Positions 1 through 61,543 are shown, counted from the whole stretch's first letter. The stretch is 63,571 nt of DNA, filler included, from Stramenopiles sp. TOSAG23-6 (GCA_900128565.1; 29 parts of 29 records of this genome joined end to end with filler, not necessarily neighbours in it); one strand, 5' to 3'. The notes: generated from the sequence alone by a model not told the origin. Numbers and translations: made by a program.

Positions 1-181
1 GTAGGTTTTTTTAGTATGATTTTTTTTTTTTTTTTTTTTTAAACAAAAAAAAATTTTTTTTTTTTTTTTTGTTTTTTTTTTTTTTTTTTTTGAAACTAAA
101 AAAAATTTTTTTTTTTTTTTTTCATACGAAATTTCGTACCTAACAAACAAAAAAAAAAAAAAATATTTTTTCATACTATAT
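1..181 (+). mobile_element. Introner-like intron, GT...AT
   Basis: Starts GTAGGT, has core ATACGAAATTTCGTACCTAAC, ends AATATTTTTTCATACTATAT. The downstream exon is in frame with ORF 209. Confidence 0.65.
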
Positions 182-1945
182 GAAATTGTAAAGATTGAAT
201 TCCAAATAATGATATCAAATTTAATGGAACAAAAAAAACAGCAATTATCAACTATAAATGTACAAAAAAATTTGGCTTGTTTTTCACAATATAAAAATTG
301 TTTTATAGATTGTTCTCAAAAACAAAATGTGAAAATATATCTAAAGCAGGTTTGTCTGGATATATGCCACATCATCCCAAATCATTTGATGACGTCATTA
401 TTTATCAATACGAATAGTATACACCCTAATCATAAAACACAAACGAAAAACAATGAAATAAACCCTAACCCTACAACAGAAAATGGTCAATATCAAAATA
501 ATAAAATACATGAAACATCTTTTCCTAACCCTAACCCTAGCCGTAGTTCTAGTTACGTAGCAAATAAAGAAAAAAATGAAAAAAATGATAAAAATGAAAA
601 ACATGAAAAAAATGAAAAACATGAAAAAAAAGTTAAAATGCAAAGAAGACCATCTGTACTTGGAAATTTGGTAGATGTACATTTTCATTTCAAATTTATC
701 TTTTTTTCGTACGAAATTTCATAGCTAAACACAAAAAAAAAAAAAAAAAAAATTCATACAAAATTGTGTACCTAACCCTAACCAATTTTAAATTTTAAAT
801 TTTAAATTTGATATATTTTTTCAATAAACAGGTTGTCAGTGCACCACCTGTTGCTGTTATAGGCGCAGCTATAGATGCTGGTGTTGGTGTTGTCAACACT
901 GCTAGTGCAGTGTCTGGTAAATTGTGGAATGTAAAGAATATCTATTGATATCATTCTTTTTTTTTTTCAATTTTTTTTTTCAATTTTTTTTTTTTTCAAT
1001 TTTTTTTTTTTAAATTTTTTTTCAAATATAAAATATCACCCTCTTATAGTCCAACTATACCATATATACTATATCTACAATATAAAAATATAAATCTCAC
1101 AAAAAAAGAAATGAAATATTTTTACATACTATATGTCATTTCACAAAAAAATCGTGAAAAACAAAAAACTCCCGAACAAATCTCTGAATATCTCCGAATA
1201 CAAACACGAAAATCAGAAATTAAATTATGTACAGAAAATTTGGAAGAACATTTGGAAGAAAATTTTATTCCATGTGGATCTGAATTTATCGTACGAATTT
1301 TTATACCTGAAGATTTACGATCAAAACATGTATGTTTTTTTTTCTTGTATGATTTTTTTTTTTTTTTTGGTACGAAATTTCGTACCTAAACAAAAAAACA
1401 AAAAACAAAAAAATATTTTTTTTTCTTATGTATTTTGTTCATTTTTTGTTGTATGATTTTTTTTTTTTCCATAGAAAATTTCGTACCTAATGAATTTCTT
1501 TTTTTTAAATTATTTAAACAATGTAGGATTGGATTGGGTTATTTTCAAGTGAAACACGAAATAATGAAGAATTTCATTCTTATCGCAAAATGAGTTCAAA
1601 AAAACAAAAATTAACATCATTTGTCTGGTATAAAAAACATGCACCCAATTTTGCTGGTGTTTGGCAATTACGGTATTTTCATGTATGTGTTGATTATGAA
1701 TTTTTGAATTTTTTTTTTTTGAATTTTTTTTTCATACGAAATGTTGTACCTAACAAAAATTTTAATTTTTTTATACATATTTTTCAATGATACAGGGTAA
1801 AGATACCAACACACCACCACTAGCTGTTACAAACCTGCTTGTACAATTTGAAAGACGTAGATCCAACCCAAAGACTATAAAAGATAATCAAAGTCGATTT
1901 GGTATGAGAAAAGTTGTAGCAAAACTTACTAAGAATTTGTTATAG
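182..1945 (+). CDS. Multi-exon gene fragment with a C-terminal SKICH-like domain
   Basis: Exons 182-676, 832-930, 1135-1329, 1527-1682 and 1796-1945 join in frame. The spliced product contains RSKH|DWIGLF...APNFAGVWQLRYFH|GKD, resembling SKICH. TAG at 1943-1945. Confidence 0.55.
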
Positions 1946-2109
1946 ACGCTACAATAAATTTATTTTTCTAGTACCTGGACATGAACTTTTTATTTATTTT
2001 TTTTTTTACCAAAAAAAATTCAATTTTTTTTTTTTTTTTTTTTTTTTTCCAAAAAAAAATTTCTACCAAAAAATTTTTTTTTAATTTTTTTTTAAAAATT
2101 TTTTTAAAA

Positions 2110-2209
2110 NNNNNNNNNNNNNNNNNNNNNNNNNNNNNNNNNNNNNNNNNNNNTTAATTAATTAANNNNNNNNNNNNNNNNNNNNNNNNNNNNNNNNNNN
2201 NNNNNNNNN
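2110..2209. other. Artificial contig spacer (N-run, TTAATTAATTAA, N-run); first of about 30 in the window
   Basis: The same six-frame-stop linker flanked by Ns recurs every ~2 kb. Adjacent segments are unrelated contigs. Confidence 0.97.
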
Positions 2210-2266
2210 ATTTTGTACCTAATAAATTTTAGTTTTTTTTTTTTGAAATATTTTTTCACAATACGT

Positions 2267-3745
2267 GTGCCTTTTTATGCTGTGCCTCCTGTGTTGCTAT
2301 TATTAAATGCGTTTCCTGTTAGCGCTATTGGAAAATTAGACAGAAAGCTAGTATCATCTGAAAATGCAAGAAAATTACCCAAAATGATTTCGACAATGTC
2401 AGCGAATGAAAATTATGAAAATATTAAGGAAAATAATGAAAATAATGAAAATATTAAGGAAAATAATTATAATAATGATGATGGTGTTTGTGTATCCGAG
2501 GAAGATATTTTAAAGACTCCAATTGAACATCAATTGGCATCAATTTGTACGTTTTCCTATACAATTTCAAATTTATTTTTTTATTTTTCCTAGAAAATTT
2601 CGAATTTCAAATTTATTTTTATTTTTCCTAGAAAATTTCGTACCTAATGATTCTTTTTTCGACATATTATTTTTCACTATACAGGGGAAACATTATTAAG
2701 TTTGGATACGTCCAGTGTTGGAGCATTTGATTCTTTTTTCCTCGTTGGTGGTCATTCTTTACTCGCTGTTCGTTTATGTAGGTTTTTTTTTTTTTTTGAA
2801 TTTTTTTTTAAATTTTTTTTTATAGTTTATTTTGTACCTAACAAAAAACAATTTTTAATTTTTAAATATTTTTTTTTTTGTAGCAGCTAAAATAAAAGCA
2901 GAATTCTTTACTAAAAAAGACCCGGGTAATGAATCTTCTGTATGTTTTATGAAAAATCATTTGAAATTAAGTGACATTGTTCAAAATCCTGAATTGAGAC
3001 AAATGGCAAGTTTAATTGAAGAAAGATTAAAACTTCATAATGTAAATACAAAATCGAATACAAAATCAATACATTCTGAAACATCTAAAAAATTTAATTT
3101 TTCTATTGATATAGAAACTAAATTATCTGATGATATTTATCCTGCAGCAACACGAAAAACGGGATATTCACGAGTTCGTCCATTTCAACAAATTGAATCA
3201 AATAAGGTTCCAAATCGGATATTATTGACTGGAGCTACTGGTTTTCTCGGTGCTTTTCTATTATTAGAATTGTTATCAAATACGACAGCGACAATTTATT
3301 GTATTGTCCGTGCTAAAAATGATGATATTGCTTTCAAAAGAATAATTGATAATTTATCAAAGTATGACATGAATAATGATATTATTCTTTCAAGTATTGA
3401 AAACGATCGAATTATTGGAATCTCTGGTGATTTATCGCGTATGTTTTTGTATCATGAATTTTACTATTTATTCCTTACAAAAAATAGGTTTTTTTATTTG
3501 TGTAGTACAAAATTTCATACCTAACAAAAACAAAAACAAATTTCAATATTTTTTTTTTCCTTTATAGTAAATTTCATACCTAACAAAAACAAAAACAAAT
3601 TTCAATATTTTTTCATGATACATGTCCTTTGGTAGGATTATCCACTCGGGCGTTTCAAGAATTAGCAACAATTATTGATGTCATTATTCACAATGGTGCA
3701 GAAGTGAATTTAATAAAATCATATGAATCACTTAAATCTACAAAT
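2267..3745 (+). CDS. NRPS-like / Lys2-like enzyme fragment (adenylation C-terminus, carrier domain, thioester reductase)
   Basis: PFYAVP...GKLDRKL (end of A domain); LASIW...FFLVGGHSLLAVRL (carrier domain with phosphopantetheine Ser); ILLTGATGFLG, GDLSRPLVGLS and IIHNGAEVN (reductase). Introns 2547-2684, 2778-2883 and 3439-3623. Confidence 0.85.
3439..3623 (+). mobile_element. Introner-like intron, GT...AT, with internal tandem duplication
   Basis: Excising GTATGT...GATACAT gives GDLS-R-PLVGLS. The upstream AG leads to a stop, and the downstream AG deletes the conserved PLVG. Confidence 0.8.
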
Positions 3746-3907
3746 GTATGTTTTATTTTTTTTTTTTAACAAAAAAATCGAATTTTTTTTTCGTACGAAA
3801 TGTTGTACCTAACAATAAAATACATTTTTATAGTAATGAAAATGTCGAAAAAAAAGAAGAAGTCAATCATTTTATTGACGATGGAATTCAAGTTTCAGAT
3901 AATTCAT

Positions 3908-4028
3908 GTACATTTTCATCATTCATTTTGTTTTACGTAATTCGTGTTTTTTTTTTTTAAAAATTTTGTACCTAACAAAATATTTTGAAACATTTTCAAA
4001 AAAAAAAAAATATTTTTACACAATACAT
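3908..4028 (+). mobile_element. Introner-like intron, GT...AT, in a Ser/Asp-rich exon
   Basis: GTACAT...CACAATACAT joins DNS-S-SESSESS in frame. AT is repeated at both junctions. Confidence 0.7.
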
Positions 4029-4473
4029 CTTCTGAATCTTCTGAATCTTCTGAATCATCAAATTCTGATTCTGATTCAGATTCTGATGTTTCAATTTCCT
4101 CAGATTCGAGTGAAACGACATCTGATAGTTCTAGTAGTTCTAGTAGTGAATCATCAGACAATGAATATTTTGCTAATATCGACCTTGAAAAGTTAGTTGA
4201 ATATAAAATTTTACCCCCGGGGAAAAATGTATGTTTTATTTTTTTTTTTTTTTTTCATACGAAATATTGTACCTAACAAATTTAAGTTTTTTTTTTTGAA
4301 ATATTTTTCCAAAATANNNNNNNNNNNNNNNNNNNNNNNNNNNNNNNNNNNNNNNNNNNNTTAATTAATTAANNNNNNNNNNNNNNNNNNNNNNNNNNNN
4401 NNNNNNNNNNNNNNNNTACNAAAAAAAAATCGAACTTGAATTTTTTTTTTGAAAACATTGAAAAAAAACGTAC

Positions 4474-5903: not shown

Positions 5904-6186
5904 TTTGCTACACCACTATTGGTTTCGTAATTTGATGAGATTTCAAGAAGAAGGGTGTTTGAAAAAAAGGAAAAAAAGAAAGAGTGATTTAGATTGTTGG
6001 AAATTTGGAATTTGGAAACACTTCACGATACACGAAATCATGAAAAAACATTTATTTTTTCATAGTAAATTTCGTACCTAACGTTTTTTCATTTTTCTAC
6101 TTTTTTTGGTGAAACAAAAATATGAGAATTGTAAACGCCATTTTTCAAAAGAATAATAATCGATGCAGATGAACTTTGGAGCATCC

Positions 6187-13291: not shown

Positions 13292-14224
13292 GTTTTGGAG
13301 GAATTTTGCTTTCTTTGATATCTGCTATAATTTTGTATGGCTTCTCTCTTGCCCCCGAATTGTACGTTGTCCACTTTAATTTCAAATTGATATTTTTTCG
13401 TACAAAATTTCGTACTTGACAATTTTTTTTGAAACGTCTTATCTTTTTGTACGCTTTTGTCCACTTTAATTTCATTTTTTTTGTTTTTTTTACTATGAAA
13501 ATTTTATACCTAACGATTTTTTTCAAATCAAAAAAAAATATTCTTTCACAATCTTTGTGTTCAACCAATAATATCAGAACTGTTGATTATTTTGAACAAA
13601 TGAGGTTGCTCCATTCGAATATGTTTGGAGTTTGTGAACATGGTCATTACATAATACAAATGTATGTTTGATATGAATTTCTAATTTGTTTTTTCCATAC
13701 GAAATTTCGTACCTAACGATTTTTTTACTAAAAAAATATTTTTTCATAAACCATATTTTTTGATTGTTTGCCACGATTGACACTTCTTCAATATGTTTTG
13801 ATTGACATTGCCACGGCAGTGGCAGGTGTTTTTGGTGACTTATTTCAATCAATGCTTAAAAGAGCTGCAGGTGTAAAGGATTCAGGAAAATGTACGTTTT
13901 CATTTTTTTTTTTCATACGAAATTTTGTACCTAAAATGTTTTTTTCATACGATTTCTTTTTTTAAATTTTTTATTATAAGAAACTCAACAAATTTCAAAC
14001 GTAAAACATATTTTTCACAATACTTTAATTCCTGGCCATGGAGGTCTTTTAGATCGTCTTGATTCTCTTTTACCCGCCGCTATTGTATTATATTCATGTA
14101 TGTTTTATTTTTTTTCAATTTTTTTCAAAAAAATTTTTTCAAAAAAATTTGTACCTAACAAATTTTCAAATTTTTTTTTGAAATATTTTTCCAAAATACA
14201 TGTATGATGTATGTAAAAACATAA
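13292..14224 (+). CDS. Phosphatidate cytidylyltransferase (CDP-diacylglycerol synthase), C-terminal exons
   Basis: The spliced product contains [33 protein letters not shown]. Introns 13362-13556, 13662-13754, 13892-14025 and 14098-14201. Confidence 0.9.
13362..13556 (+). mobile_element. Introner-like intron, GT...TT (two partial tandem units)
   Basis: gaa tt|GTACGT...CACAATCTTT|g tgt is in frame. TT is repeated at both junctions. Confidence 0.7.
13892..14025 (+). mobile_element. Introner-like intron, GT...TT, inside the cytidylyltransferase signature
   Basis: Only this excision (or its 2-nt shifted equivalent) gives [11 protein letters not shown]. The upstream AG gives TAA, and the downstream AG removes IPGHG. 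Confidence 0.88.
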
Positions 14225-14377
14225 AAACATACATAAACAATAGTATGAATTCATTTCATACATTACAAAAAAGTGCACAAATAGTTGCGGATGGAGAATT
14301 TGCAAGATCATGTATGTTTTATTTATTATATAAATACAAAAAGTTCGCATAATTTCATTCTTTTTATAATTTATTAT

Positions 14378-15287
14378 TTAAAATGGTACTGCTTGGTACA
14401 ATGTAGCAGCCCCTTTACGACAACGAGGACAAGTATCTGATAAAGAAACATCCTTTAACCAATCTCTTATTTCGAGTAATTCAGATGTATTGTGAAAAAA
14501 AAATTTAGTTAAAAAAATCGTTAGGTACGAAATTTCGTATGAAAACCAAAAAAAAAAATAAATTAGAAATTCATATCAAACGTACATCTTCCGAGACGAA
14601 TAATTTCATCACGTTGATATGATGCAGCCAATATAATACGAGATACAGCCCATTGAGCTGCTAGACGAACTGAAGCGTCCTGATGAAAGCGTACCACGAG
14701 CACTACTTGAAGCATAGCACGTGCCATGTATTTTGGAAAAATATAACAAAAAAAATAATAAAATTTGTTAGGTACAACATTTCGTACGAAACAAAAATCG
14801 ATTTTTTTGTTAAAAAAAAAAATAAAACATACATTCGGGCAGTTTGAGGCCCTCTACGGGAAAGTTCTACAAACGTGCTAACTGCTCGAAGTAAATTGCA
14901 AAGAACAAGGCTATCTGCACCAAGCAAATCGAGACGGGGCATTGTCAACGGTTGATCATGTCTTTTGGAAAAATATTTCACAAAAAAAAAATCGTTAGGT
15001 ACAAAATTTCGTACGAAAAAAAAATCGAATTTGAAAAAAAAAAAAAAACATACATATTTCTGTAACAGTGGAAAAAAAAATGAACCTGCAACATTTGCAA
15101 ATTGATTTGGTTTTGATATTTTTACTTTTCTTCTTCCTGAACCCCACCGTCGTGTCTTTTCATTTTTTTTTGATATTGTTTTTGATATGCTTTCTATTCT
15201 TTGTCTGTCATTCCCAATCGTACCCTCTGATGAAATGTCCACAGTATCTACGCTATCAACAGCACCCTCTGGTAACCAACATTGACC
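14378..15287 (-). CDS. TELO2: Telomere length regulation protein TEL2 homologue, C-terminal exons
   Basis: NQFANVAGSFFFPLLQKY|DQPL...DLLGADSLVL...TAR-M-ARAMLQVVLVVRFHQDASVR...S-ELLEIRDWLKDV resembles the TELO2 C-terminus. Introns 14958-15053, 14726-14832 and 14485-14585. Confidence 0.82.
14726..14832 (-). mobile_element. Introner-like intron, GT...AT
   Basis: cga at|GTATGT...CCAAAATACAT|g gca is in frame. The next two AGs are phase 1 while the donor is phase 2, so using them frameshifts. Confidence 0.88.
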
Positions 15288-15440
15288 ATGTATTTTGGAA
15301 AAATATTTCAAAAAAAAAAAAACTAAAATTTGTTAGGTACNNNNNNNNNNNNNNNNNNNNNNNNNNNNNNNNNNNNNNNNNNNNTTAATTAATTAANNNN
15401 NNNNNNNNNNNNNNNNNNNNNNNNNNNNNNNNNNNNNNNN

Positions 15441-16632
15441 AAGAAGGCTCCGAAGAAACGAAAGGCTAAAAAGCAAGTGGTTAGTATCAGTAGTGATGAT
15501 GAAGCATATGCTCCCGTTGATGAGTCCTCCTCCCCCACGAAAAAGAAATCCTCGAAAAAGTCAAAAAAGACAAAGACTTCTACGTCTTCATCATGTGCTC
15601 AGCCAAAGAAGAAATCTAAAAAAAGTTCAAAATCTACAAAAACAACAAAATCTATTAGTTCAAGTCAAACAATGGAATTACCCGACTTCGCGTCTGCTCC
15701 AGCTCCTTCGAAAAAAAAGTCTGGATATGCATTTTACAAAAGGTCTGGTGGCTCTGCTCCACCTCCAATGGCCGGCCAAAAGCCGAAACCGAAACCTAGA
15801 GATGGTTGTTTTGTCAAAGAAAATGGAAAGGGAATGTCATTTGTTATAACAGGTGTCCAAGAATCGTTAGAACGTGGAGCTGTAGAGGCTTTAATCAAAG
15901 CATGTGGTGGATTAGTCAAGTCAGGTGTAAGTGGAGTTACGGATTATCTCTTGGCAGGGGTGGTACTTGAAGATGGTCGACAAACATGTGAAAGCTCAAA
16001 GTATAGAAAGGCGAGTGGTAAGTTTGCTAAAACGTGTAAGATCATTTCAGAAACTGAATTGTTCAAATTAATTGATCCCAAATATGATCCTGAAGGCGCA
16101 GTGGAAGACGACTATGTTCCACCAGATCCAAATGCAATAAAAGATGAAAAGAAGAAAAACACACAACCAAAAAAGAAGCGAAAAACAAAAAAATCTACTA
16201 AGGAAAATGATTTTGAAAAGAATAACAAGAAAAGAAAAATTCCACAGCTTGTTGAAGACAATGAAGAAAATATGAAAAAAAAGAAAAAAAAAACACCACC
16301 AAAAAAGAAGCGAAAAACTCAAAACAAAAAGTCAACCAAAAAATTATCACAAGATGTCAGTATAGCAATGTATGTTTTATTTTTTTTTAAATTCGAATTT
16401 GTTTTCGTACGAAATATCGTACCTAACGATTTTCTTTTGAAATATTTTTCCAAAATACATAGGAGCTTTAAAAGATGCTCAGAAAAGTCTGTTTGCAACG
16501 CGACACAAGGAATTGATGCGCCTTACTGCAGTTGTTTTGGTGGGTATGTGCAAAGATATTGGAGCTAGTGTCGAGAAGGCAAAGAAATCTATTCTTTGTG
16601 ATAGAATTATCCACGCCGAAAATGATTTTTAA
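15441..16632 (+). CDS. BRCT-domain protein (RFC1-like BRCT) with a probable C-terminal SAP-like motif
   Basis: GMSFVITGVQESLERGAVEALIKACGG...VSGVTDYLLAG (BRCT). After intron 16370-16460: LMRLTAVVLVGMCKDIGASVEKAKKSILCDRI, TAA. Confidence 0.65.
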
Positions 16633-22109: not shown

Positions 22110-24079
22110 TGGTTTTTCGTACAGAACCTTCATAAGATGCTGCTTCATAGCTTTCACAATTAATAGAGGACGAATTGGTAGGTAAACTACAATATAACAC
22201 TCTATCGCAATATGAAGGTGTACGTTTCTCTACATAACTTTCAGATGTATTTTGAAAAAATATTTCAAAAAAATCGTTAGGTACAAAATTTCGTACGAAA
22301 ACAAATTCGAATTTGAAAAAAAAATAAAACATACATGGTCTTTGTGGTAGTTTATCTTGTTTACGTTTTTGAAGTTTAGCCTCAAGTGCCTGGAATGCAG
22401 CAAATGCAGCAGCTTCCATCGATGACCAGGCTGCAGCAAATGTATTGTGAAAACCTATTTGAAATTTGAAATTCGTTAGATACAAAAATTGGCACGAAAT
22501 TATTTTTATGAAATTCATCATATAAAAGCACAAGCAATTTCAGCTGCTATACCAGTTGCTATGCATGCACGACGTTCCGGTGAGGGCATTCCAGTCGCTT
22601 CATTACTTCTTCTAATGTCCTTACTTAATGCGCTTATATTCCGAAACGACATTGAGTCAGCTTGTTGGGCTCGAACTGCATGTGAAACTTCACCTCCCCC
22701 AAAATTTGGATTCTTTTCGTTCTTTTCGCTCTTTTTTCGTTTCAGTTTGAACGTTGGAGGAAAATTTATAGGTGATTCTTTAAACCCCTGTAAACAGTTA
22801 CCCGCGCGCATTTCTGACAAAAGTTCATCCGCTTCCATGAAACATGCCCAACTCCCTGAAGTTTTGCTAGACCCACCACATCGATCCACCATACTACGCA
22901 CTGCTGCTCTGTGAGCGACGTGAACGAAATGTGATCTTTCATCATGAGATGGCCAAGCCATAGCTTTTGAGTCAAAATCACTCATATTTACACTTTTTGA
23001 TATTACATCGCTATCTTCCTGTACCCCTCTGTAATTAGAAAATGATGGACATGCATTTTGGAAAAATATTTCAAAAAAATCTAAAAAAATATTTTGTTAG
23101 GTACAAAATTTCGTATGAAAAAAAAAATTCGATTTTTTTGTAAAAAAAAAAAAATAAAACATACATGGAGGAATGTAATCATTATTAGTGTCATTAACGG
23201 TAGATCCTTGTGAGAAACGTCTTTTTCTACTACAAAGTGACAGATCGATTCTGTAGTTCAGATCTCCAAAATAAAAAACATGTTCAAATTGAAACTGAAG
23301 TTGAATAATTTCGTCAATTTTTGAATTCGGTGTAATATCAGAAACTGTCGAAAGCAAAGGCCATTTTAATGTTGCAGCGACAGAATCTTTTAGCGTTGTA
23401 GCAACAGAATTGATAACCGTTCCAGCTGCTGAATTTGCCGCAGAAATCCAAGATCCATCATCTTTTTCATGATTCGAACTCGATTCATTACTATTATATG
23501 TATTTCTTCTAGATGAACTGTTCAATATATTTTGCAATTTATCTGAATTCGCGGGAGACTCTTTTTCATTTGGAATAGTAGTATTCATTGAAACTTCAAA
23601 GCTTCTTTTACTATGAGAAGAATGTGAAACTTTTCTTTTTTTTGCTCTTTTTTCGTGATATGTATTTTGGAAAAATATTTCAAAATTTACTATAAAAAAA
23701 ATATTTGTTAGGTACAAAATTTCATGTAAAAAACAATTCAATTTCAAATTTAAAAAAAAAAATAAAACATACATTTGCATCTATGAAAATGTAATAATTT
23801 CATAGCAGTGGTAAAAACTTCTTCTGTTTGTTTGTTTCTATCTTTGCATCTGCCTTCATGTGCAGCCAAGTGAACATTTATTAAACAAATCGATGGAAAA
23901 TGTATTTTTCGTGTGGTTCTTTTTATATTTTGTCTATTTTTTTTACTATTTGATATATCTTCTTCTTTTCTATTCTGTGCATAATTTTTATTATTTTTAG
24001 AGCAATTAAGAGGTTTCTGAGAACACAAATCATCTTCTGTTTCGTATACAGTTAATTCTCTAAATCGCAATGTAGCAAC
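22110..24079 (-). CDS. Inositol polyphosphate 5-phosphatase fragment
   Basis: INVHLAAHEG, VFYFGDLNYRI, FKESPINFPPTFK and RTPSYCDRVLY are joined in frame by introns 23660-23772, 23051-23164, 22440-22531 and 22245-22334, all ending in AT. Confidence 0.88.
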
Positions 24080-33960: not shown

Positions 33961-34052
33961 CAAATATTTCAAAATTTTTCTATAAAAAAAAAATTGTTAG
34001 GTACAAAATTTTTTTTTTCGTAAAAAAAAAAAAAAAAATGAAGAAAATTTTA

Positions 34053-51258: not shown

Positions 51259-52411
51259 AACATTTGAACTAGTGATTCCAGCTTCTCTAATCGCAGAATC
51301 TGCATAATTTTCACTTAATGTTGGTAAGCAATCCTCATTGTATACTTCTATATGAGATGCAATGGCTCGTGCATATATCTTGAAAAAATATTTTTATAAA
51401 TTTTTGTTAGGTACAAAATTTCGTATGAAAAAAAATATTCAAAAAAAAAACTTTTAATTTTGAAAACGTACATCTGCAGCAGTTTCTGTTGCAGATTGAT
51501 ATTCTGCAGTCTTTGCAACTGACATTTGCTTTATCCATGTATTTTGGAAAAATATTTCAAAAAAAATCTAAAAAAATTCGTTAGGTACAAAATTTCGTAT
51601 GAAACCAAAAAAAAAAATTCATACCAAAAAAAAAATAAAACATACATGGACAAGATATAAGATTAGTATCTATAATAGATGTCAATGTTCTAACATCATT
51701 CAATTCAAATAAACTACTAAATAGTTGTATAGTTGCAATTGATATTTCATTTGAAGTTGAATTAACTCTATGAATCAAAATTTCACGAAAATTTTGATGT
51801 GTATTTTGTTGTGTTGTAGACAAAATATCATTCGTACAATTTTGTTTTGTATCTCGAAGTGTATCAAACTCTTTTGTGGTTTTGATATCTACATTTTTAC
51901 TAGAACATTTTGTAGTTTTCGAATTTTCTGATATTGTGCCCATTAAAAGTTCAACTATAATTTCCAGTAATGGAGATAATTCATTTGAAGCATGTATTTT
52001 GGAAAAATATTTAAAATTAAATTGTTAGGTACAAAATTACGTACGAAAAAAAAATTCGATTTTTTTTTTTCGGTAAAAAAAAAAAATAAAAACATACATT
52101 TTTTTCACTAATAAGTTCGATAGTATTTTGAATATAAGTTGTAGCTGCAGCAGCGGAGCTTTCATTTGAAGATAAAATTGTAGGACTCACAACAGCATGT
52201 AAGAAATATTTCTTGATTAGAAATATTAAATTATCGAATAAATCAGAATTTGATTCACGAACATCAGTTGCATTAGGGTTAGGGTTTAACATTTTATTCT
52301 TTACAAAATAATTGTCATTTCTATTTCCATTCTTAAGTAATGAAAGCACGAGATTACAATACCAAATTCGTTCTTGAAATCTTTGTATTGCAGCATTTGC
52401 ATGATTTTCAT
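51259..52411 (-). CDS. FHIP/FAM160-like (RAI16-like) protein fragment
   Basis: FLHAVVSPTILSSNE...TTYI and FREILIHRV...ISIATIQLFSSLF. In-frame GT...AT introns at 51992-52097, 51537-51645 and 51373-51471. Confidence 0.55.
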
Positions 52412-52824
52412 TTGATCCATATATTTGTTGAAAATATGATTATTTTTACTAAAAAAAAAATATTAGGTATGAAATTGTCTATGAAAAATAAAAAAATAAA
52501 AAAAACATCCATTTTGAAACAAAGAAATGATGAAATTTTGTGTAAAAAAAAAAATTGAAATTCATGATGAAAATGTATCGAATAAAAACTCAAAAAAAAA
52601 AAATGTTTTTTTTTTGTTAGGTACAAAATTTTCAAAAAAAAAAAAAATAAATTCGAAATNNNNNNNNNNNNNNNNNNNNNNNNNNNNNNNNNNNNNNNNN
52701 NNNTTAATTAATTAANNNNNNNNNNNNNNNNNNNNNNNNNNNNNNNNNNNNNNNNNNNNTTAGGTACAAAATTTCGTACGAAAAAAAAAAATCGATTTTT
52801 TTGTTAAAAAAAAAAAAAACATAC

Positions 52825-54943: not shown

Positions 54944-57026
54944 TTAGGTACAAAATTTCGTACGAAAAAAAAAAATCGATTTTTTTGTTAAAAAAAAAAA
55001 AAACATACATTACCTTTCAAAATCGAACACATTTCTGTAATTTTTTGTTTAGATTTAAGAGTGTATCCTCTACATTCTGGTTTAATTGATGTATACAGGC
55101 TTTCAGTACCTAGTAATATCATATGATATGGTAAATTATCACAATCATTTGGAATAAAACGAAGTCGACTTCCATTTTTACGATTATATTCTTTATTACT
55201 TATTTGATGCTGTTGTTTTTTATGAGCAATAAATTGAACCATTTTGTCTCTCATTAATAACTCAGTCATATTTTCATCACATGCTTCTTCGAATGCTCTT
55301 TGTTTTTGTTCAGCTGTTTGAGCTGTTTTAAATCGAACAAATGCAGAATTTTGTATAGTTTGTTGTTGTTTTTTGAGTTTTTGATGTTCCTCTTTCGTTG
55401 CATCAGTCCAACAACCTACGTCATCACAATACCATGTTACACCGTCTAATGAAGTGTTCATGGCGTGTATTGTATCGTCCAAAATAAGGAAATAAAGTAT
55501 AGGAAGAACGTTTTTGAACATTAGTGTTATTTGTATTATTTTGTTGTTGTATATGATAATGTATGAGAGGGGGAGGAGTGATTTTGAAAGTATGGTGTGG
55601 AGGAGAAGGGGGAGAGAAAGAAACTCTGTATTTCAAAAAAAAAATGTTTCGGAGGTTTTTTATTCTCAAATTCAAAGCATAAAAAAGTCCCGATATATAC
55701 GCGGTGATGACGGTTAATTTTTTCGGCGGTTATATAATTGTTGCTTTTTCTCCATGTGTTTGGCTTGTAAAACGTCGTGTGGTGCAAAATACTAAGTACT
55801 AGCTTGTATTACAACAACTTACTTTATTACTACGGCCTTTGGTCTTTGGTCTTTGGTTGGTCATATTATATCGATCTCCTGAAACGACGACAAACGAACA
55901 ACGAAATTAAACGAAATTAAAATTATTTAGGTACAATATCCCGATATATTTTGTGATTGTCATTTATAACATAATAAACGTAAGTTCAGTGAAGTTCAGG
56001 GAATATTTCCAAAAATGGAGAATGACTACAAAACATTGCCCGATGAGGAAGAAGCGCTACTTTTGAAAGGAGAAGATGAAGCAGATGAAGTAGAAGATAA
56101 AGAGTCAAAGAAAAAGTGTTTCATGAGTTCTACCTGCCTCATTTCGTTGATAGTTTTGTGTGTCGTTTTATTGACAGTAATCGTAACATTCATTATAATT
56201 CATAAACAGAAGAAAAAACGTAAAGAGCGTATGTTATTGCAAAGAGAACCTTTAATTGCATTGTATGATAGTACAAATGGAGATGGTTGGGAAATAAGTG
56301 AAGATTGGAAAACAAAAAAAGATATTTGTAAATGGTACGGAGTTACGTGTACTACTAATGGAAGTGTTATTAAATTGGAATTGAGAAACAACCTATCTGG
56401 TGAAATACCAAAGGAAATTGGTCAACTAACAAATCTCAAAGATTTGTGGTTGGATAACAACAAACTATCTGGTAAAATACCAGAAGAAATTGGTCAACTA
56501 ACAAATCTCGAACTTTTGACCTTGTCTAATAACAAACTAACTGGTCCAATTCCAAAAGAAATTGGTCAACTAACAAGTCTCGAAGCATTGTTCTTGTACG
56601 ATAACAACCTATCTGGTCCAATACCAAAGGAAATTGGTCAACTCACAAATCTCGAACAATTGGACTTGCACAACAACAACCTATCTGGTCCAATTCCTAG
56701 AAAACGGTGAACAACCACTTTTTTTGGCGACATTAATAATTTTGTTGGAAACATACTTATAGTTAGTATATATATGATTGCTATACAAATATGTTTTTCC
56801 CATTACACAAAAACCAAAGCTCTATCATAATATTCTATCAGTATTCCACCATGCAATTCAAATATTCAAAAATAAAAAGACTTACAAAAACATAGTTTTA
56901 TAGTATCATTTATTATTTATCACCAAATATAAATTGTTGTAATAATGGTATTATTTGAAGACGACATTTATTTTGGAAAAATATTTCAAAAAAAAAATCT
57001 AAAAAAAATTGTTAGGTACAAAATTT
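54944..57026. repeat. Second version of contig 52760-54843
   Basis: Offset of 2184; identical up to the first LRR and nearly identical after the stop codon. Confidence 0.93.
56015..56710 (+). CDS. Membrane-anchored leucine-rich-repeat protein, variant B
   Basis: Same architecture and identical N-terminal half as variant A, with divergent LRRs. Confidence 0.9.
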   Translation: MENDYKTLPDEEEALLLKGEDEADEVEDKESKKKCFMSSTCLISLIVLCVVLLTVIVTFIIIHKQKKKRKERMLLQREPLIALYDSTNGDGWEISEDWKTKKDICKWYGVTCTTNGSVIKLELRNNLSGEIPKEIGQLTNLKDLWLDNNKLSGKIPEEIGQLTNLELLTLSNNKLTGPIPKEIGQLTSLEALFLYDNNLSGPIPKEIGQLTNLEQLDLHNNNLSGPIPRKR

Positions 57027-57439: not shown

Positions 57440-58868
57440 TCATACAATTAAGTATTGCAAGATGCCATCGTACCATTGCTTCTGCACACCTTTAACAATA
57501 TTTTTGCCAGTGCGTGTACAAGCACCAGTGTCAATCTTTCTATGGTAAAATTGTTGCATGTTCGTACGAGCCCACTTTGGACCAATATTAGGGGGAGAGC
57601 CAATGCTGACCCTTTCCCCAAAGTCAATTTGGTTTACGTGAAGACATTGCGATATTATACACTCAAGAAAATCAACTTGTTTGACAGAGTCTGTATCTCG
57701 CTGCACGTGCATGTTAGATCCCAGTTTAGTTCTTAATTGTTCTATGCTCATAAACGAAGACAAATGCCATCCAGCATTCGCGATACTCGTGGGCCAAATG
57801 TACGGTCTGTGATTATCACGCATTTCATCAACGCACCATTTTCTATCAAGAAAAAAACCATTACAATCCAATTCTAACTGATGCCGACGCGCCACTTTGG
57901 CTCGTCTCCATTGAGGTCGTCTCTTTTCTCGACATCCAAAGTCATACATGTAGGGTATAGTGTGTAGCTCAACAGGTGTCCTGTAACCTGTACAAGAGCG
58001 AAGCATGTGAATCACGTATTGTGTAAAAATATGTCAAAGTTAAACTTGAAATTAGTTAGGTACAAATCATAGTAAAAGAATAATTTTGAAATTTAAAAGT
58101 GGACAACACGTACACATCTGCTCGTGGAATTTCATCTAAGCCTCCTAAAATAATAAGGTCATCCGGGGCGGCATTTTTTAAACCTTGAAGTTTGGCTGAC
58201 TTTTGATTGTTTGCATTTATTTTGGCTTTCTGTTCCGATAGCTTTTTATAGTGGTTGGCCGACTTTGTGAGCGAGATGTCAGTGTCTACCACTATGTGGA
58301 TGATTTTGTGCAGAAACTTCGCGAACCGCTCCTTGTTTTCGGAAAAGTGGAGCGGTTTTGGCTTTCCCGAAAATGTCACTGGGCTCTCTACGATAATAAA
58401 GTGGTCGACAACAGAATCAAGCTCATGCAGTCGAACATCCAGCATGTCAAGCTCAAAGTTAAGATTGACAAGATCCCAAACCTTGGGATGTTGGAAATTA
58501 TTGGATTGTTTATACCCTGATTCTACTCTTTGCCAGCCATGCGTTTCGCACGACACAATTTTACTGGAATCAGTGGAAGTCTCCGGTATGTGGTGGTCAA
58601 AAATGACTGGCGAATACGTAAACAAAAATAGAAATAATACAATCACAATAATGGCGACGAAACCAAAAGCAAATTGACTATTATTTAGTCTCTTCCGCAT
58701 TCCGGGCCCCTTACACTTCTTCATCCCTCGACGAGTTCGGCTACACGTTGTGCGATAGAGGGGTAGTCGTATGTTCTTGGTGGAAAGGTTTGCCACGGCA
58801 GCAGCTCCCATCTGTTTTGTTTTGGTTATAATTTTTTGTAATGGCCCGGATATTTTCCTTTTAAACAT
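57440..58868 (-). CDS. Glycosyltransferase family 17 (MGAT3-like), one intron
   Basis: ELDMLDVRLHELDSVVDHFIIVESPVTFSGKPKPL, LDEIP and AGWHLSSF; intron 58014-58113. Confidence 0.88.
58014..58113 (-). mobile_element. Introner-like intron, GT...GT
   Basis: gat gt|GTACGT...CACAATACGT|g att gives DEIPRAD-V-IHMLRSC in frame. GT is repeated at both junctions. Confidence 0.85.
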
Positions 58869-59401
58869 GATTCTTGATTTAGAAGAAATTAAAACACGTC
58901 GTAGATTATGATATAATATCTAATAATTGAATCGCTCTATTGTCATGTTATAGAAATCTAAATGATCGAAGGCAACTCTAAAAGATCTTGATGGTTGTTT
59001 TTATTCAAGCATGCAAATTGATTGACACCAAGGTTATAGAATTCTATAACCTTGTTGACACGAAATAAGTAATCTAACGTACCGTACGTTGAATTGTGGC
59101 TGAGAATGATCGAATGATGATTGACTCTCTTCTTCCATCCCCCTTCAATATAACAATTTTGATCTCTCGATCTCTTGATCAGATCATGGAGTTAGGTGAG
59201 CCTCGGAGNNNNNNNNNNNNNNNNNNNNNNNNNNNNNNNNNNNNNNNNNNNNTTAATTAATTAANNNNNNNNNNNNNNNNNNNNNNNNNNNNNNNNNNNN
59301 NNNNNNNNTTTTTTTAAAAAAAAATCGAATTTATTTTTTTATATAATTTTTTACCTAACAAATTCTAGTTTTTTTTTTTGAAATATTTTTCCAAAATACA
59401 T

Positions 59402-61390
59402 ACATCACAAATATCGAGTGCAACGCAGCCCACACAGCCGTGTATTTCATTTTCTCCGATATGTTCATCTAATTTTAAAATTGTCATTGGAAGTTTGAAA
59501 TTTATTGCAAATTTTTCTTCTCGACTGTTTTGTCGGGTTCAGTCGAATTGTCGTACTTCCTATGGTCAACGAACAGATGACGAAATATTATTACAACAAA
59601 TATTGGCTGTATTAACAACCGCGACAAAAATTACTCCATCATTCGAACATCCTGAGTATTCAAGGTATATAGACGCACTGACTGTATCGCTGTTTAATTC
59701 TTTGCAACTTTTTCGGACATATTTCTGCATAGAAAGAATAAATGATTCGAGGAGCAATCGAAAGTCAGATGTAGTCGATTCTGTCACAGCAAAGATAAAA
59801 TATATCAATACACTATTAAGTGATATGTTTCATTTAAGTATAGAGATATTGGATCATATAATTTACCCTCATTGTTGTTTTTATAATTCACCAAATAACT
59901 CTAATGATGAATGTACATTTCAAGAGAAACATTTGAGGTTATTTTACCTGGCGACAACTGATTTATATTGTAAATTACCTTGTAATACAACCAAAACTAT
60001 AAAATATATAGGACAAAATGAGTACAAAGATATTTTTCAACATTCTGACCTGATAGTAACAAAGCACAAAAACTTTTCTGAACAACAAAAAAACTGGTGA
60101 TGCGGATCCTTTCACAGGGAACAAATTTTGTTCCAAGGTCGTTTCTATGGGAATTTTGAATTTATTGGTGACCAATAGTAATCAAATGAAGGAAAACATC
60201 GATGCAAAATTATGTATCTCCTTATTTATACATATCTGTCGCCGTGTTGATATAATTCAATCGAATAAAGATTGTTTAGAATGGAGTAAATATGTACGTT
60301 TTCATTTTTTTTTCGCCTATTTTTTTTCGTAAGAAATTTTGTACCTAATAACAAAAATCTTGTAATATTTTTTCATAATACATGCCAAGGTTTTACCAGG
60401 TGTTTCACTTTTCCAATTACTTGACGTTGTCAAAGATTCTGTGAAAGATAATTACGCTGTTGGTGTATTAAATATTACAATTAGACTCATCGAAATGCTA
60501 CTATTTGATATTCAAAGTAAATTAATATTAGATACTGTTACAAACGTTTTCAACTCTTTTTTTGAAAGTAGGTACGCAGATACTCGGATGAACGAAATTT
60601 CATCAGAAACTTTTGTTAGTTTACTATACATTTGTAGCAAATGTAATGAAAACATTACAGTAAAAGTAAAACAGACATTGAATAGGTGTGCAAAATATTT
60701 TGACCCAATGATAATTCTTAAATTATTGAAGCAAAATGTATCTAAAAGAAGAAAAGACGAAAATGCCTCAGATTTCTGTATAATCTCCTTTCTTGCTCAA
60801 TTATCAGAAGAATTGTGTTCACTGTATTTACGATGTTCGATACATGCGCTGAAAAACATAGAAATTATCCATATTTTATCAAATAATTTTATTACAAAAG
60901 TAATTGTTATATGTAGTCAAAATTCCACATTCGTTTGTAGTGGCCAAAATCTAGCAAATAACCCTAACCCTAACCCAAATCTAGCAAACAATGGAAAAAA
61001 TACTTCTAAAACAGATGAACTCATTAATATGTGCGTAGAGCTTACACAATCTTTATTTTCGGAGGCATTTTCATTAACAAATATCACAAAGAATACACCT
61101 GAGAGTTTTATTATAGATAGCCAAAGTTTGCCAAAATCTATTCAAAATAGAAACCCTAACCCTAATAACTTCAATCATAGAAATGATGTGATACGAGTCG
61201 TAACAGTTTTGTCACAACTTGTTTCAGTTTTACAAAATATTCAAATACAAAACACGAATAATGATTATGCAATATCGAATGTATGCCAAAGTGTATTTAA
61301 TATTTTTCATAAAATAATTGATCCATTTTTGATGTATTTGCAAAATGAATCAATTGAAGAAAATGACACAACTGCTGCAAAAATGGCTAC
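59402..61390 (+). CDS. Hypothetical helical (HEAT-like) protein fragment; homopolymer frameshift near 60090; intron 60294-60383
   Basis: Long ORFs joined by a family intron. Confidence 0.5.
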
Positions 61391-61543
61391 NNNNNNNNNN
61401 NNNNNNNNNNNNNNNNNNNNNNNNNNNNNNNNNNTTAATTAATTAANNNNNNNNNNNNNNNNNNNNNNNNNNNNNNNNNNNNNNNNNNNNTACGAAATTT
61501 TGTACCTAACGATTTTTTTTTTGAAATATTTTTCCAAAATACA

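What the first reader, a model, noticed from the sequence alone, without database searches (positions are those of the whole stretch)
1..61543. Genome-wide introner-like intron family whose 3' splice sites are mostly not AG (GT-AT, GT-TT, GT-GT)
Seen: dozens of related inserts, mostly 90-200 nt, interrupt unrelated genes. Their structure is GTAYGT, poly(T), TTCGTACGAAATTTTGTACCTAAC, an A/T spacer, then AATATTTTTCCAAAATAC-NN. Where a host gene is recognisable they are in sense orientation. In TELO2, CDP-DAG synthase, the 5-phosphatase, FAD synthetase, GT17 and the Lys2-like reductase, frame and motifs are restored by excision to NN = AT, TT or GT. In the cases checked, neighbouring AGs give frameshifts, stops or motif loss. 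Known: introners (Micromonas, Aureococcus) normally use AG acceptors, while non-canonical TE-derived introns are known in Fritillaria, Amoebophrya and euglenids with different end rules. Inference: this lineage splices a canonical GT donor to an AG-independent acceptor, implying a modified spliceosome or an unknown excision route. I do not recognise it as a described family.
Basis: partly seen in the sequence, partly recalled or inferred. Interest (0 to 1): 0.95.

Follow-up and report, generated by a model that had tools for sequence, protein, structure and literature searches.

The report
Transposon-born introns that end in AT
An uncultured, AT-rich marine flagellate carries a very abundant family of ~100-base mobile elements that sit inside genes as introns, and most must be cut out at an AT rather than the near-universal AG because their last two bases are a copy of the insertion site.

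Summary
The repeat family is real: 42 complete and 26 partial copies lie in about 60 kb, which is 29 glued ~2.1-kb contigs. All 42 complete copies start with GT. They end in AT (29), AG (9), TT (3) or GT (1).

Removing each copy exactly to that end keeps the reading frame in 27 of 31 clear cases. It restores Pfam profile continuity across three non-AG junctions. All 42 copies lie in sense orientation.

The ends are also short inverted repeats. This is a MITE-like element with a 2-bp target-site duplication, and the duplicate supplies the 3' splice site.

One contig of a probable DNA run lacks one copy precisely, which suggests insertion polymorphism. Direct RNA evidence for splicing is weak.

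The closest parallels are published: Fritillaria MITE-derived introns, Amoebophrya introners and Physarum U12 introners. I rate this a new variant of a known kind. The host lineage is unresolved.

The parts
677..831 (+). complete element, exon flank AT, GTACAT..AG
1330..1526 (+). complete, tandem double element, flank AT, GTATGT..AG
1683..1795 (+). complete, flank AT, GTATGT..AG
2547..2684 (+). complete, flank TT, GTACGT..AG, in PP-binding part of the Lys2-like gene
2778..2883 (+). complete, flank AT, GTAGGT..AG
3439..3623 (+). complete (core duplicated), flank GC, GTATGT..AT; NAD_binding_4 profile 71|73 abuts across it
3746..3825 (+). complete, flank AT, GTATGT..AT
3908..4028 (+). complete, flank AT, GTACAT..AT
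13362..13556 (+). complete, flank TT, GTACGT..TT (flank repeats at the end)
13662..13754 (+). complete, flank AT, GTATGT..AT; no AG from branch motif to +60
13892..14025 (+). complete, flank AT, GTACGT..TT; CTP_transf_1 profile 235|237 abuts
14098..14201 (+). complete, flank AT, GTATGT..AT
14485..14585 (-). complete, flank AT, GTACGT..AT
14726..14832 (-). complete, flank AT, GTATGT..AT; retained in unspliced contigs of X1 and X8; the X7 RNA contig stops at its exon edge
14958..15053 (-). complete, flank AT, GTATGT..AT; precisely absent from a 351-nt contig of run X1 and, by inference, from a 172-nt contig of RNA run X7
16370..16460 (+). complete, flank AT, GTATGT..AT
22245..22334 (-). complete, flank AT, GTATGT..AT (phosphatase-like gene)
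22440..22531 (-). complete, diverged, flank TT, GTGCTT..AT
23051..23164 (-). complete, flank AT, GTATGT..AT
23660..23772 (-). complete, flank AT, GTATGT..AT
33344..33447 (-). complete, flank AC, GTACGT..AT
33657..33820 (-). complete, flank GT, GTAGGT..AG
35928..36024 (-). complete, flank TT, GTATGT..TT (flank repeats at the end)
39784..39895 (-). complete, flank AT, GTATGT..AT
40702..40826 (-). complete, flank AT, GTACGT..AT; holds CCCTAA repeats
40962..41130 (-). complete, flank AT, GTATGT..AT
41288..41410 (-). complete, flank AT, GTATGT..AT
41542..41714 (-). complete double element at a contig end, flank AC, GTACGT..AT
41825..41929 (+). complete, at a contig start, flank AT, GTATGT..AT (kinase gene)
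42015..42171 (+). complete, flank AT, GTAATT..AG; Pkinase profile 161|163 abuts
42504..42606 (-). complete, flank AT, GTACAT..AT; telomere-like repeats inside; no AG from branch motif to +60
42701..42815 (-). complete, flank AT, GTACGT..AT
43186..43317 (-). complete, flank AT, GTATGT..AG
43544..43678 (-). complete, flank AT, GTTTGT..AT
48796..48899 (-). complete, flank AG, GTATGT..AG (flank repeats at the end; canonical by insertion site)
50174..50266 (+). complete, flank AT, GTATGT..AT (PAPS_reduct-like gene)
51130..51258 (-). complete, flank TT, GTATGT..AT; 3' end is a perfect 11-nt inverted copy of the 5' end
51373..51471 (-). complete, flank AT, GTACGT..AT
51537..51645 (-). complete, flank AT, GTATGT..AT
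51992..52097 (-). complete, flank AT, GTATGT..AT; weak RAI16-like profile 288|290 on its two sides
58014..58113 (-). complete, flank GT, GTACGT..GT; GT17 profile 187|190 abuts; homolog P0009 colinear; relative P0008 keeps it
60294..60383 (+). complete, flank AT, GTACGT..AT
2210..2265 (+). 3' part cut by contig start (ends ATAC+GT)
4229..4316 (+). copy cut by contig end
13237..13291 (+). 3' part cut by contig start (ends ATAC+TT)
15288..15340 (-). 3' part cut by contig end
17494..17544 (-). 3' part cut by contig end
22052..22106 (-). 5' part cut by contig start
24084..24152 (-). 3' part cut by contig end
28501..28550 (-). 3' part cut by contig end
28651..28732 (-). 5' part and core cut by contig start
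33044..33092 (-). 5' part cut by contig start
40310..40388 (-). 5' part and core cut by an N gap
43822..43909 (-). 3' part cut by contig end
50422..50473 (+). 5' part cut by contig end; not joined to 50574-50630, which belongs to another contig
50574..50630 (+). 3' part cut by contig start, before an IFT122 exon
52760..52824 (-). 5' part cut by contig start (duplicate contig pair)
54785..54843 (-). 3' part cut by contig end
54944..55008 (-). 5' part cut by contig start (duplicate of 52760-52824)
56968..57026 (-). 3' part cut by contig end (duplicate of 54785-54843)
59315..59400 (+). copy cut by contig start
61491..61543 (+). 3' part cut by contig start
109..176 (+). partial or degenerate copy, not catalogued
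6050..6093 (+). core-only fragment upstream of tRNA-Asn (duplicate at 39068-39111)
33950..34035 (-). degenerate copy in a low-complexity A/T region (another hit at 34167-34200)
52610..52651 (-). weak partial hit near a contig end

Best explanation
These are introners: copies of a miniature, non-autonomous DNA transposon about 100 nt long. Each has short terminal inverted repeats (GTATGTTTT ... AAAA(C)ATAC) and a 2-bp target-site duplication, usually AT.

The element brings a strong 5' splice site (GTATGT or GTACGT), T-runs and a CTAAC branch motif about 42 nt from its end. It brings no AG. The intron ends after the second copy of the duplicated target, so removal from GT through that copy restores the original coding sequence exactly.

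Because the preferred target is AT, most copies are GT..AT introns. Insertions at AG, GT or TT give GT..AG, GT..GT and GT..TT. Some AT ends may later have mutated to AG.

Shown here: the family, its anatomy, the register of excision, the sense-only orientation, the duplication pattern, and one precise empty site.

Inferred: removal happens on RNA by a U2-type spliceosome whose second step or 3'-site recognition tolerates U (or UU, GU) in place of AG. The family is also inferred to be recently or currently mobile.
For: Family and copy number.
- Motif counts: 37 against 0 expected, and 39 against 1.1 expected.
- 73 HMM hits in about 60 kb. 20 of 58 contig ends fall inside a copy.
- In runs X1, X7 and X8, depth over element parts is thousands of times the exon depth. 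The tool warns this is no copy number.

Intron nature.
- GT starts 42 of 42 copies.
- Excision is frame-consistent in 27 of 31 clear cases, P about 9e-10. Sense ORFs are longer at 42 of 42 copies.
- Retention would break the ORF in 38 of 42 copies: 28 frameshifts and 10 in-frame stops.
- Intron phases are mixed: 14, 18 and 10.
- Pfam profile positions abut across three non-AG junctions and one AG junction.
- A 50%-identical homolog (P0009) is colinear over the GT17 junction.

Transposon nature.
- The exon's last 2 nt equal the intron's last 2 nt in 28 of 42 copies (permutation p 0.0018).
- That count includes 4 non-AT matches: TT/TT twice, AG/AG and GT/GT (p 0.0004).
- GTAT/ATAC ends are inverted repeats. 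Copy 51130-51258 has a perfect 11-nt inverted repeat.

Empty site. X1 contig record 7 (351 nt, 0 mismatches) joins 15053 to 14956 and keeps a single AT. The same contig runs 26 nt into the next element. X1's whole depth in the purely exonic bins (6.53) equals the depth of that contig.

Second assembly. A metagenome contig (L003) has one full copy, CAT|GTATGT..ATACAT|GG, in frame. A relative 95% identical in protein (P0008) keeps the GT17 intron at the same site.

Possible drift towards AG. AG-ending copies fit the family HMM less well, median 25.2 against 37.1 bits, one-sided p 0.046.
Against: No spliced transcript was seen directly for any non-AG copy.
- The only joint found (element 14958-15053) occurs in a run guessed to be DNA as well as in an RNA run. 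It may reflect an allele without the insertion rather than splicing.
- The X7 joint itself is inferred from bin-depth arithmetic and is not listed by the tool.
- RNA runs X8 and X10 hold unspliced copies.

The flank equals the intron end in only 28 of 42 copies. 6 of the 9 AG-ending copies have an AT flank. The duplication reading therefore needs later mutation or imperfect duplication.

For the 24 AT/AT copies the boundaries are formally ambiguous between GT..AT and AT..AC.

21 of 33 non-AG copies have some in-frame, stop-free AG nearby. This alternative was excluded only where homology was available.

4 of 31 clear cases failed the frame test. All four lie next to short exons or other elements.

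The HMM used was built mostly from AT-ending copies, so it is biased. No transposase and no spliceosome component could be examined.
Confidence: 0.6

Rival explanations
1. The same elements are removed by a minor (U12-type) or U12-like spliceosome. That machinery is known to accept non-AG ends, and in Physarum its introns were multiplied by a transposon with inverted repeats and a 2-bp duplication.
For: [quoted passage not shown] Physarum U12 introns carry inverted repeats flanked by a TA repeat (bioRxiv 10.1101/2020.10.12.336362, passages).

The family's 5' consensus GTATGTTT differs from Physarum's U12-like GTATCTTT at one position. The conserved 3' block TTTTTCCAAAATAC has a TTCC..A-rich look near the 3' end. 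That last resemblance is my own reading and was not tested.
Against: 0 of 42 copies have the TATCC or TATCT 5' motif. Position +5 is G in 37 of 42.

The clear branch-like motif CTAAC lies a median 42 nt from the end. That is far beyond the 10-13 nt typical of U12 introns, a figure I recall and partly saw quoted.

No minor snRNA lies in the window at Rfam gathering scores. This says little for 60 kb.
Confidence: 0.1
2. The true boundaries lie two bases to the left. Most copies are then AT..AC introns (|ATGTATGT ... ATAC|), a pair of ends that the spliceosome is known to handle.
For: In 24 of 42 copies the flank and the end are both AT, so GT..AT and AT..AC give the same mRNA. AC precedes the last two bases in most copies: intron -4 is A in 35 of 42 and intron -3 is C in 30 of 42. 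That an A at the first base pairs functionally with a C at the last is recalled knowledge, from no call.
Against: GT is invariant (42 of 42), while the preceding dinucleotide is AT in only 31 of 42.

The 9 AG-ending copies are frame-consistent only in the GT..AG register, which is the same register as the AT ends.

Copy 48796-48899 (AG|GTATGT..TTCAG|) would become AG..TC. Copies with GC, AC, TT or GT flanks would get ends with no precedent.
Confidence: 0.1
3. The elements are removed from RNA without the spliceosome, like the nonconventional introns of euglenids. In that case base-pairing of the inverted ends would define the cut sites.
For: The ends are inverted repeats. Together with the palindromic AT flank they can form up to about 9 bp across both cut sites. 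Predicted end-to-end pairing is higher than with a shuffled 3' block, 2.9 against 1.9 expected pairs, p 0.018, n = 40. Euglenid introns show TSD-like repeats and TIR pairing (PMC11282704, passages).
Against: The family keeps a textbook 5' splice site, a CTAAC branch motif and T-tracts. Euglenid nonconventional introns lack these (PMC6221363 abstract; PMC11282704 passages).

Pairing is weak or absent in many copies: 16 of 40 have under 0.6 expected pairs. GTACGT copies show no compensating change at the 3' end.
Confidence: 0.1
4. The inserts are cut out of DNA (IES-like programmed elimination or transposase excision), not out of RNA.
For: A contig of a run guessed to be DNA lacks element 14958-15053 precisely.
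Against: Sense orientation in 42 of 42 copies is not expected for DNA excision. The same X1 contig keeps the neighbouring element. The intact splice signals would have no role. Exons are open under the standard code, and nothing points to a ciliate-like germline/soma split. An empty allele of a young insertion explains the contig more simply.
Confidence: 0.05

Closest known systems
Non-canonical, MITE-derived introns of the tunicates Fritillaria borealis and F. pellucida (Henriet et al. 2019, seen only through citations; PMC13326754 sections 4 and 21; review PMC11282704 passages)
   Same: Both are transposon-derived with inverted-repeat ends. In both, a short exonic repeat before the 5' site recurs as the last intron bases and forms the 3' splice site. 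3'AT is the commonest end there (44% and 34%), with a U-rich tract. Removal there is by the U2-type spliceosome.
   Different: There the 5' ends are mostly not GT (AG/AC and AG/AT classes) and the repeat is a YAY triplet. Here GT is invariant, the 5' site and branch motif are yeast-like and strong, and the repeat is 2 nt. The host here does not look like a tunicate: it has a plant-type LRR receptor-like gene, and its IFT122 is no closer to animals than to green algae. The U2AF duplication described there could not be looked for.
Introners of Micromonas, Aureococcus, Chrysochromulina, dinoflagellates and others (Gozashti et al. 2022, PMC9860276 passages)
   Same: Both are high-copy, short, DNA-transposon-like elements that create introns on insertion. 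TSDs or TIRs are present. One splice site is carried by the element and the other is recruited from the TSD. The mRNA length is unchanged.
   Different: Described families use GY..AG ends. Here 33 of 42 copies do not end in AG. That survey started from annotated introns, so it could not have found such a family. Its supplementary tables were not readable here.
Introner elements among non-canonical introns of Amoebophrya (PMC7789003, abstract and passages)
   Same: It is also a marine protist. Its repeated introns have inverted repeats and 3-5-nt direct repeats that overlap the exon/intron borders. The ends are non-GT-AG, and borders are ambiguous because of the repeats.
   Different: There is no dominant dinucleotide pair there and no conserved 5' site. 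Inverted repeats are 8-20 nt and form hairpins. Here there is one coherent family with GT, a branch motif and a fixed register.
Transposon-derived U12-type introns of Physarum polycephalum (bioRxiv 10.1101/2020.10.12.336362, passages)
   Same: Both show inverted-repeat ends plus a 2-bp direct repeat, mass creation of introns, tolerance of non-AG ends including GT-AT, and splicing that restores the reading frame.
   Different: There the 5' motif is U12-type (RTATCYTT) and the branch motif lies 10-12 nt from the end. Here the 5' site is GTATGT and CTAAC lies about 42 nt from the end.
Nonconventional introns of euglenids and non-canonical introns of hemistasiid and eupelagonemid diplonemids (PMC6221363, PMC12621601, passages)
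   Same: Both have non-GT-AG ends, paired or inverted ends, TSD-like repeats and a suspected MITE origin. Some of those reports come from uncultured marine flagellates.
   Different: Those introns lack a U1-complementary 5' site and a pyrimidine tract, and the diplonemid ends are G/C-rich. Here the signals are spliceosomal and A/T-rich. No similarity evidence places this host in Euglenozoa.

Membership tests
Introner (transposon-derived spliceosomal intron family) | Many near-identical introns in unrelated genes | tested here: met
   42 complete and 26 partial copies in 29 unrelated contigs; HMM and motif counts
Introner (transposon-derived spliceosomal intron family) | Sense orientation, and removal restores the ORF without changing mRNA length | tested here: met
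   Sense in 42 of 42; frame-consistent in 27 of 31; profile continuity at 4 junctions
Introner (transposon-derived spliceosomal intron family) | Transposon hallmarks (TSD and/or TIR), with presence/absence polymorphism | tested here: met
   Flank equals end in 28 of 42 (p 0.0018); GTAT/ATAC ends; an 11-nt perfect TIR in one copy; one precise empty site in run X1
Introner (transposon-derived spliceosomal intron family) | GY..AG splice sites | tested here: not met
   GT starts 42 of 42, but AG ends only 9 of 42
Introner (transposon-derived spliceosomal intron family) | Shown to be spliced from RNA | tested here: inconclusive
   One joint seen in an RNA run and in a probable DNA run; unspliced copies in RNA runs
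U12-type (minor) intron | 5' motif RTATCCTT | tested here: not met
   0 of 42; donors are GTATGT 23, GTACGT 11, other 8
U12-type (minor) intron | TTCCTTRAC branch motif about 10-20 nt from the 3' end | tested here: not met
   The last CTAAC-like motif lies a median 42 nt from the end, and 36 of 42 lie at 32-53 nt
U12-type (minor) intron | Minor snRNAs and ZRSR2 present in the genome | not testable with these tools
   No whole genome is held; none found in the 60-kb window
Euglenid-type nonconventional intron | No conserved GT/AG and no U1-complementary 5' end | tested here: not met
   GT in 42 of 42, with GTAYGT in 34 of 42
Euglenid-type nonconventional intron | Stable pairing that brings both ends together | tested here: inconclusive
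   2.9 against 1.9 expected end-to-end pairs, p 0.018; absent in many copies
Fritillaria-type non-canonical MITE intron | The exonic repeat before the 5' site recurs as the last intron bases and forms the 3' site | tested here: met
   compared with PMC11282704 and PMC13326754 passages
Fritillaria-type non-canonical MITE intron | Mostly non-GT 5' ends (AG/AC, AG/AT) | tested here: not met
   GT in 42 of 42
Ciliate-type IES (DNA elimination) | No strand preference relative to the host gene | tested here: not met
   42 of 42 copies are in sense orientation
Ciliate-type IES (DNA elimination) | DNA molecules without the insert in the same organism | tested here: inconclusive
   One X1 contig lacks one element but keeps its neighbour; the run's kind is only guessed as DNA

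The most novel reading that the evidence does not exclude
An uncultured marine flagellate of unplaced lineage has had essentially all of its introns created by one still-mobile MITE family. Its major (U2-type) spliceosome routinely completes the second step at AU, UU or GU instead of AG. It would choose the 3' site by the element's fixed 3' motif or register rather than by the AG dinucleotide. That would make it an independent, protist counterpart of the Fritillaria case, but with a canonical GT donor.
Probability: 0.4. Interest if true: 0.8.

Novelty: new variant of a known kind. Interest (0 to 1): 0.62.

Why it matters
If transcripts confirm the junctions, this is a clean natural experiment on why introns end in AG. 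One young and uniform family has a perfect 5' site and branch site, and its 3' dinucleotide is set by the insertion target (AT, TT, GT or AG). That lets 3'-site rules be read from sequence and expression alone.

It would add an independent lineage to the few in which transposon invasion goes with relaxed splice-site rules: Fritillaria, Amoebophrya, Physarum and euglenozoans.

It also shows how standard gene finders and introner surveys, which assume GY-AG, would miss most genes and introns of such organisms. A family this frequent, with 20 of 58 contig ends falling inside a copy, also explains the shattered assembly.

Tried and rejected
- Whole-genome access: none is held. No snRNA, U2AF or transposase search was possible.
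Only one 2.1-kb contig could be laid, so 8 elements of one contig were examined and no others.
- In one search parts of the contig had no cover in the RNA runs, for example 13805-13875. PolyA run X10 gave only element-derived fragments. Neither says anything about expression.
- JGI metagenomes: the exact 24-nt core had 0 matches. A 19-nt degenerate core gave 4 loci, of which only L003 is a true copy. L001, L002 and L004 match the core by chance.
- Earlier findings of the scan: nothing for this genome or sequence. A word search returned two unrelated Ostreococcus notes.
- Host lineage was not resolved. The Atlas lists animal phyla (Platyhelminthes, Arthropoda, Rotifera) as the commonest taxa of the nearest Cfap43 clusters. 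The best Cfap43 relative is an unnamed protein at 58% identity. IFT122 is 50-56% identical to proteins of green algae, molluscs and chytrids alike, and its weakest PDB match is 8f5o, which I recall to be a kinetoplastid structure.
- The apparent frame break in the Cfap43 gene (7583-7641) is not an intron.
- The two duplicate contig pairs show no element presence/absence difference.
- The paper on single-cell diplonemid genomes is not held. I know its intron claims only through citing papers.
- Supplementary files, for example Fig. S1 of PMC13326754 and Table 6 of PMC9860276, were not read. They could list a GT/AT class or a similar family.
- None describes this family.

Full report
WHAT THE WINDOW IS. 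The 63,571 bases are not one locus. They are 29 contigs of 2,109 down to 2,081 nt, sorted by length and glued with N44-TTAATTAATTAA-N44 linkers. G+C is 19-36%. Two contig pairs are near-duplicates, at 98.7% and 97.3% identity. No whole genome is held. Anything that spans a linker is therefore an artefact. This includes the apparent intron made of 50422-50473 and 50574-50630: the left contig carries a PAPS_reduct-like gene and the right one an IFT122 exon.

The core motif matches 37 times at up to 3 mismatches against 0 expected, and the 3' motif 39 times against 1.1 expected. I catalogued 42 complete copies. An HMM built from 34 of them (those of 140 nt or less) finds 73 hits. Of these, 47 lie in the catalogue and 26 outside it, and 19 of the 26 are cut by a contig end or N gap. 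Twenty of 58 contig ends lie inside a copy. The repeat is evidently what broke the assembly.

The copies are 80-197 nt long, median 110.5. All 42 begin with GT: GTATGT 23, GTACGT 11, other 8. The 34-copy consensus is GTATGTTTTaTTTTTTTTT ... TTTCgTACGAAATTTTGTACCTAAC ... gAAATATTTTTcCAaAATACAT. The last CTAAC-like motif lies a median 42 nt from the end, and 36 of 42 lie at 32-53 nt.

WHERE THE COPIES ARE CUT. The last two bases are AT in 29 copies, AG in 9, TT in 3 and GT in 1.
- In the 31 copies where the longest open frame on each side is unambiguous, excision from GT through those two bases joins the two frames in 27 (P about 9e-10 against 1/3). The four failures lie next to very short exons or neighbouring elements.
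- Retention would frameshift 28 host ORFs and put a stop into 10 more. Only 4 of 42 copies would read through.
- Intron phases are mixed at 14, 18 and 10, so the elements are not translated inserts.

Homology gives single-residue resolution at four junctions.
- CTP_transf_1 profile 193-235 | split codon | 237-258 across 13892-14025, which ends in TT.
- Glyco_transf_17 71-187 | 190-225 across 58014-58113, which ends in GT. A 50%-identical homolog, P0009, runs colinearly through ...IPR-x-x-V-I....
- NAD_binding_4 1-71 | split codon | 73 onward across 3439-3623, which ends in AT with a GC flank.
- Pkinase 135-161 | 163 across the AG-ending 42015-42171.

Nearby AGs cannot rescue 12 of the 33 non-AG copies. 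In the other 21 an in-frame, stop-free AG exists in principle. Where homology is available, such an AG would delete conserved residues, for example the PGHGG block or eleven colinear GT17 residues.

ORIENTATION. At 42 of 42 copies the open frames that abut the element are longer on the element's own strand than on the opposite strand. The copies lie on both window strands, 17 plus and 25 minus. This is therefore a property of the host genes and not of the assembly.

The two exon bases before GT are AT in 31 of 42 copies. They equal the last two intron bases in 28 of 42 (permutation p 0.0018). The informative cases are the non-AT ones: TT/TT twice, AG/AG once and GT/GT once, which makes 4 matches with p 0.0004.

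The ends GTAT...ATAC are reverse complements. With the palindromic AT flank they read ATGTAT...ATACAT. Copy 51130-51258 ends in a perfect 11-nt inverted copy of its start. This is the anatomy of a miniature inverted-repeat element with a 2-bp target-site duplication. The intron is the element plus one copy of the duplication, so its removal restores the pre-insertion sequence.

Six of the nine AG-ending copies have an AT flank and read ...ACAG where the others read ...ACAT. AG-ending copies also fit the family model less well (25.2 against 37.1 bits, one-sided p 0.046, with a model biased towards AT copies). That is weak support for older copies drifting to a canonical AG.

READS. Eleven coded runs hold parts of 13237-23236: seawater metagenomes, three small runs of 'organism A', and four metatranscriptomes. 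Only one contig could be laid.
- X1 is a seawater metagenome whose kind is guessed as DNA. Its contig record 7 (351 nt, depth 6.53, no mismatch) covers 15250-15053 and continues directly at 14956-14807. It therefore lacks element 14958-15053 exactly, keeps a single AT, and runs 26 nt into the next element.
- In the purely exonic bins, X1's total depth equals that contig's depth.
- In RNA run X7, record 16 (172 nt, depth 4.4) is listed on 14833-14956. The bin depth of 1.79 at 15083-15153 equals 18 x 4.4/71 + 24 x 2/71. That places its other 48 nt on 15053-15100 and gives the same joint. This is my inference and is not a listed joint.
- That contig stops exactly at the exon edge of element 14726-14832, whereas X1 reads on into that element. 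This fits a branch between spliced and unspliced forms in RNA, but the contig end is one base off the exact expectation and the depth is low.
- X8 and X1 also hold the unspliced stretch 14563-14786, and polyA run X10 holds unspliced copies from other loci.
- Across copies in these runs, family similarity runs through the flanking AT at both ends (loose ends at 14834, 14485 and 15288).

My reading is that the X1 contig is most simply an allele without a young insertion. The reads show precise absence but do not prove splicing.

OTHER GENOMES. One metagenome contig (L003, 3.2 kb, 35% G+C) carries one full copy, CAT|GTATGT...CACAATACAT|GG, in frame in an ORF. A Logan-derived protein (P0008) that is 95% identical to the GT17 gene product reads through the same intron at the same site. 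The family therefore exists beyond this assembly.

MECHANISM. The best-supported reading has the element supplying a U1/U6-type 5' site, a CTAAC branch site and U-tracts, while the 3' cut falls after the duplicated target. Strand dependence and intact spliceosomal signals argue for removal from RNA by the major spliceosome, with a second step that accepts U at the last position: 33 of 42 copies end in T and 9 in G.

End-to-end pairing could help place the 3' site. It is only modestly above control (2.9 against 1.9 expected pairs, p 0.018, n = 40), is absent in many copies, and shows no compensatory change.

The rivals are a U12-like route, a shifted AT..AC register, a euglenid-like non-spliceosomal route, and DNA-level excision. 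Each is weighed in its own section, and none is excluded by direct data.

COMPARISON WITH PRINT.
- Described introners use GY-AG and often recruit one site from the TSD (PMC9860276, passages).
- In Fritillaria borealis and F. pellucida, MITE-derived introns have a short repeat before the 5' site that recurs at the 3' end and forms the 3' site. 3'AT is the commonest end, and divergent U2AF paralogs bind such ends (PMC13326754, sections 4 and 21; PMC11282704, passages).
- Amoebophrya has non-canonical introner elements with direct and inverted repeats (PMC7789003, passages).
- Physarum has transposon-derived U12 introns that include GT-AT (bioRxiv 10.1101/2020.10.12.336362, passages).
- Euglenids and some diplonemids have non-canonical introns with paired ends (PMC6221363, PMC12621601, passages).

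The present family combines an invariant canonical donor and branch site with a TSD-defined, mostly AT end. I found this combination in none of these texts or in searches. Supplements and the 2016 single-cell diplonemid paper could not be read.

THE HOST is a flagellated eukaryote with Cfap43, IFT122, an LCCL-domain gene, GT17 and a plant-type LRR receptor-like gene. Its lineage is unresolved.

VERDICT. The feature is a new variant of a known kind. It is interesting mainly because it is so uniform, and because it can be tested with data that already exist in public RNA runs.

Noticed in passing
whole window; linkers at e.g. 2110-2209, 4317-4416, 50474-50573: The window is 29 contigs of about 2.1 kb, sorted by falling length and glued with N44-TTAATTAATTAA-N44. 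Neighbouring genes are therefore not linked, and features that cross a linker are artefacts.
   Followed up: yes
4417-6522 vs 37435-39527; 52760-54843 vs 54944-57026: Two contig pairs are 98.7% and 97.3% identical over their full length. They may be alleles, paralogs or a co-assembly of several cells. They show no difference in element content.
   Followed up: yes
40702-40826, 42504-42606, 753-800; L003 about 2250-2340: Telomere-like CCCTAA/TTAGGG repeats sit inside several elements and downstream of the gene in L003. The CTAAC branch motif overlaps the CCCTAA unit.
   Followed up: no
7583-7641 (-): The Cfap43 gene has two overlapping ORFs in different frames and no intron-like sequence between them. 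The relative P0001 aligns on both sides with a 13-residue gap. This is probably a one-base assembly error or a real frameshift. The contig has no element at all.
   Followed up: partly
6186-6261 and 39204-39279 (+): tRNA-Asn(GTT) genes lie on the duplicate contigs, each about 100 nt downstream of a core-only fragment of the element.
   Followed up: no
1330-1526, 3439-3623, 41542-41714: Double elements with two cores in tandem are each removed as one intron. They suggest insertion of one copy into another, or tandem duplication.
   Followed up: no
53786-54529 and 55970-56710 (+): A receptor-like gene carries a plant-type LRR N-terminal cap (..W..C.WYGVTC..) followed by LRRs. It argues against an animal host.
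   Followed up: no
46204-48285 (+), 35965-37314 (-), 60384-61388 (+): Three long ORFs (694, 449 and 335 aa as scanned) have no Pfam match. They were not examined further. None looked like a transposase in Pfam.
   Followed up: partly
14958-15053, 22245-22334, 41288-41410, 41825-41929: Four copies have a length divisible by three and are stop-free in the host frame. If retained, they would add 30-41 mostly Phe-rich residues rather than break the protein.
   Followed up: no
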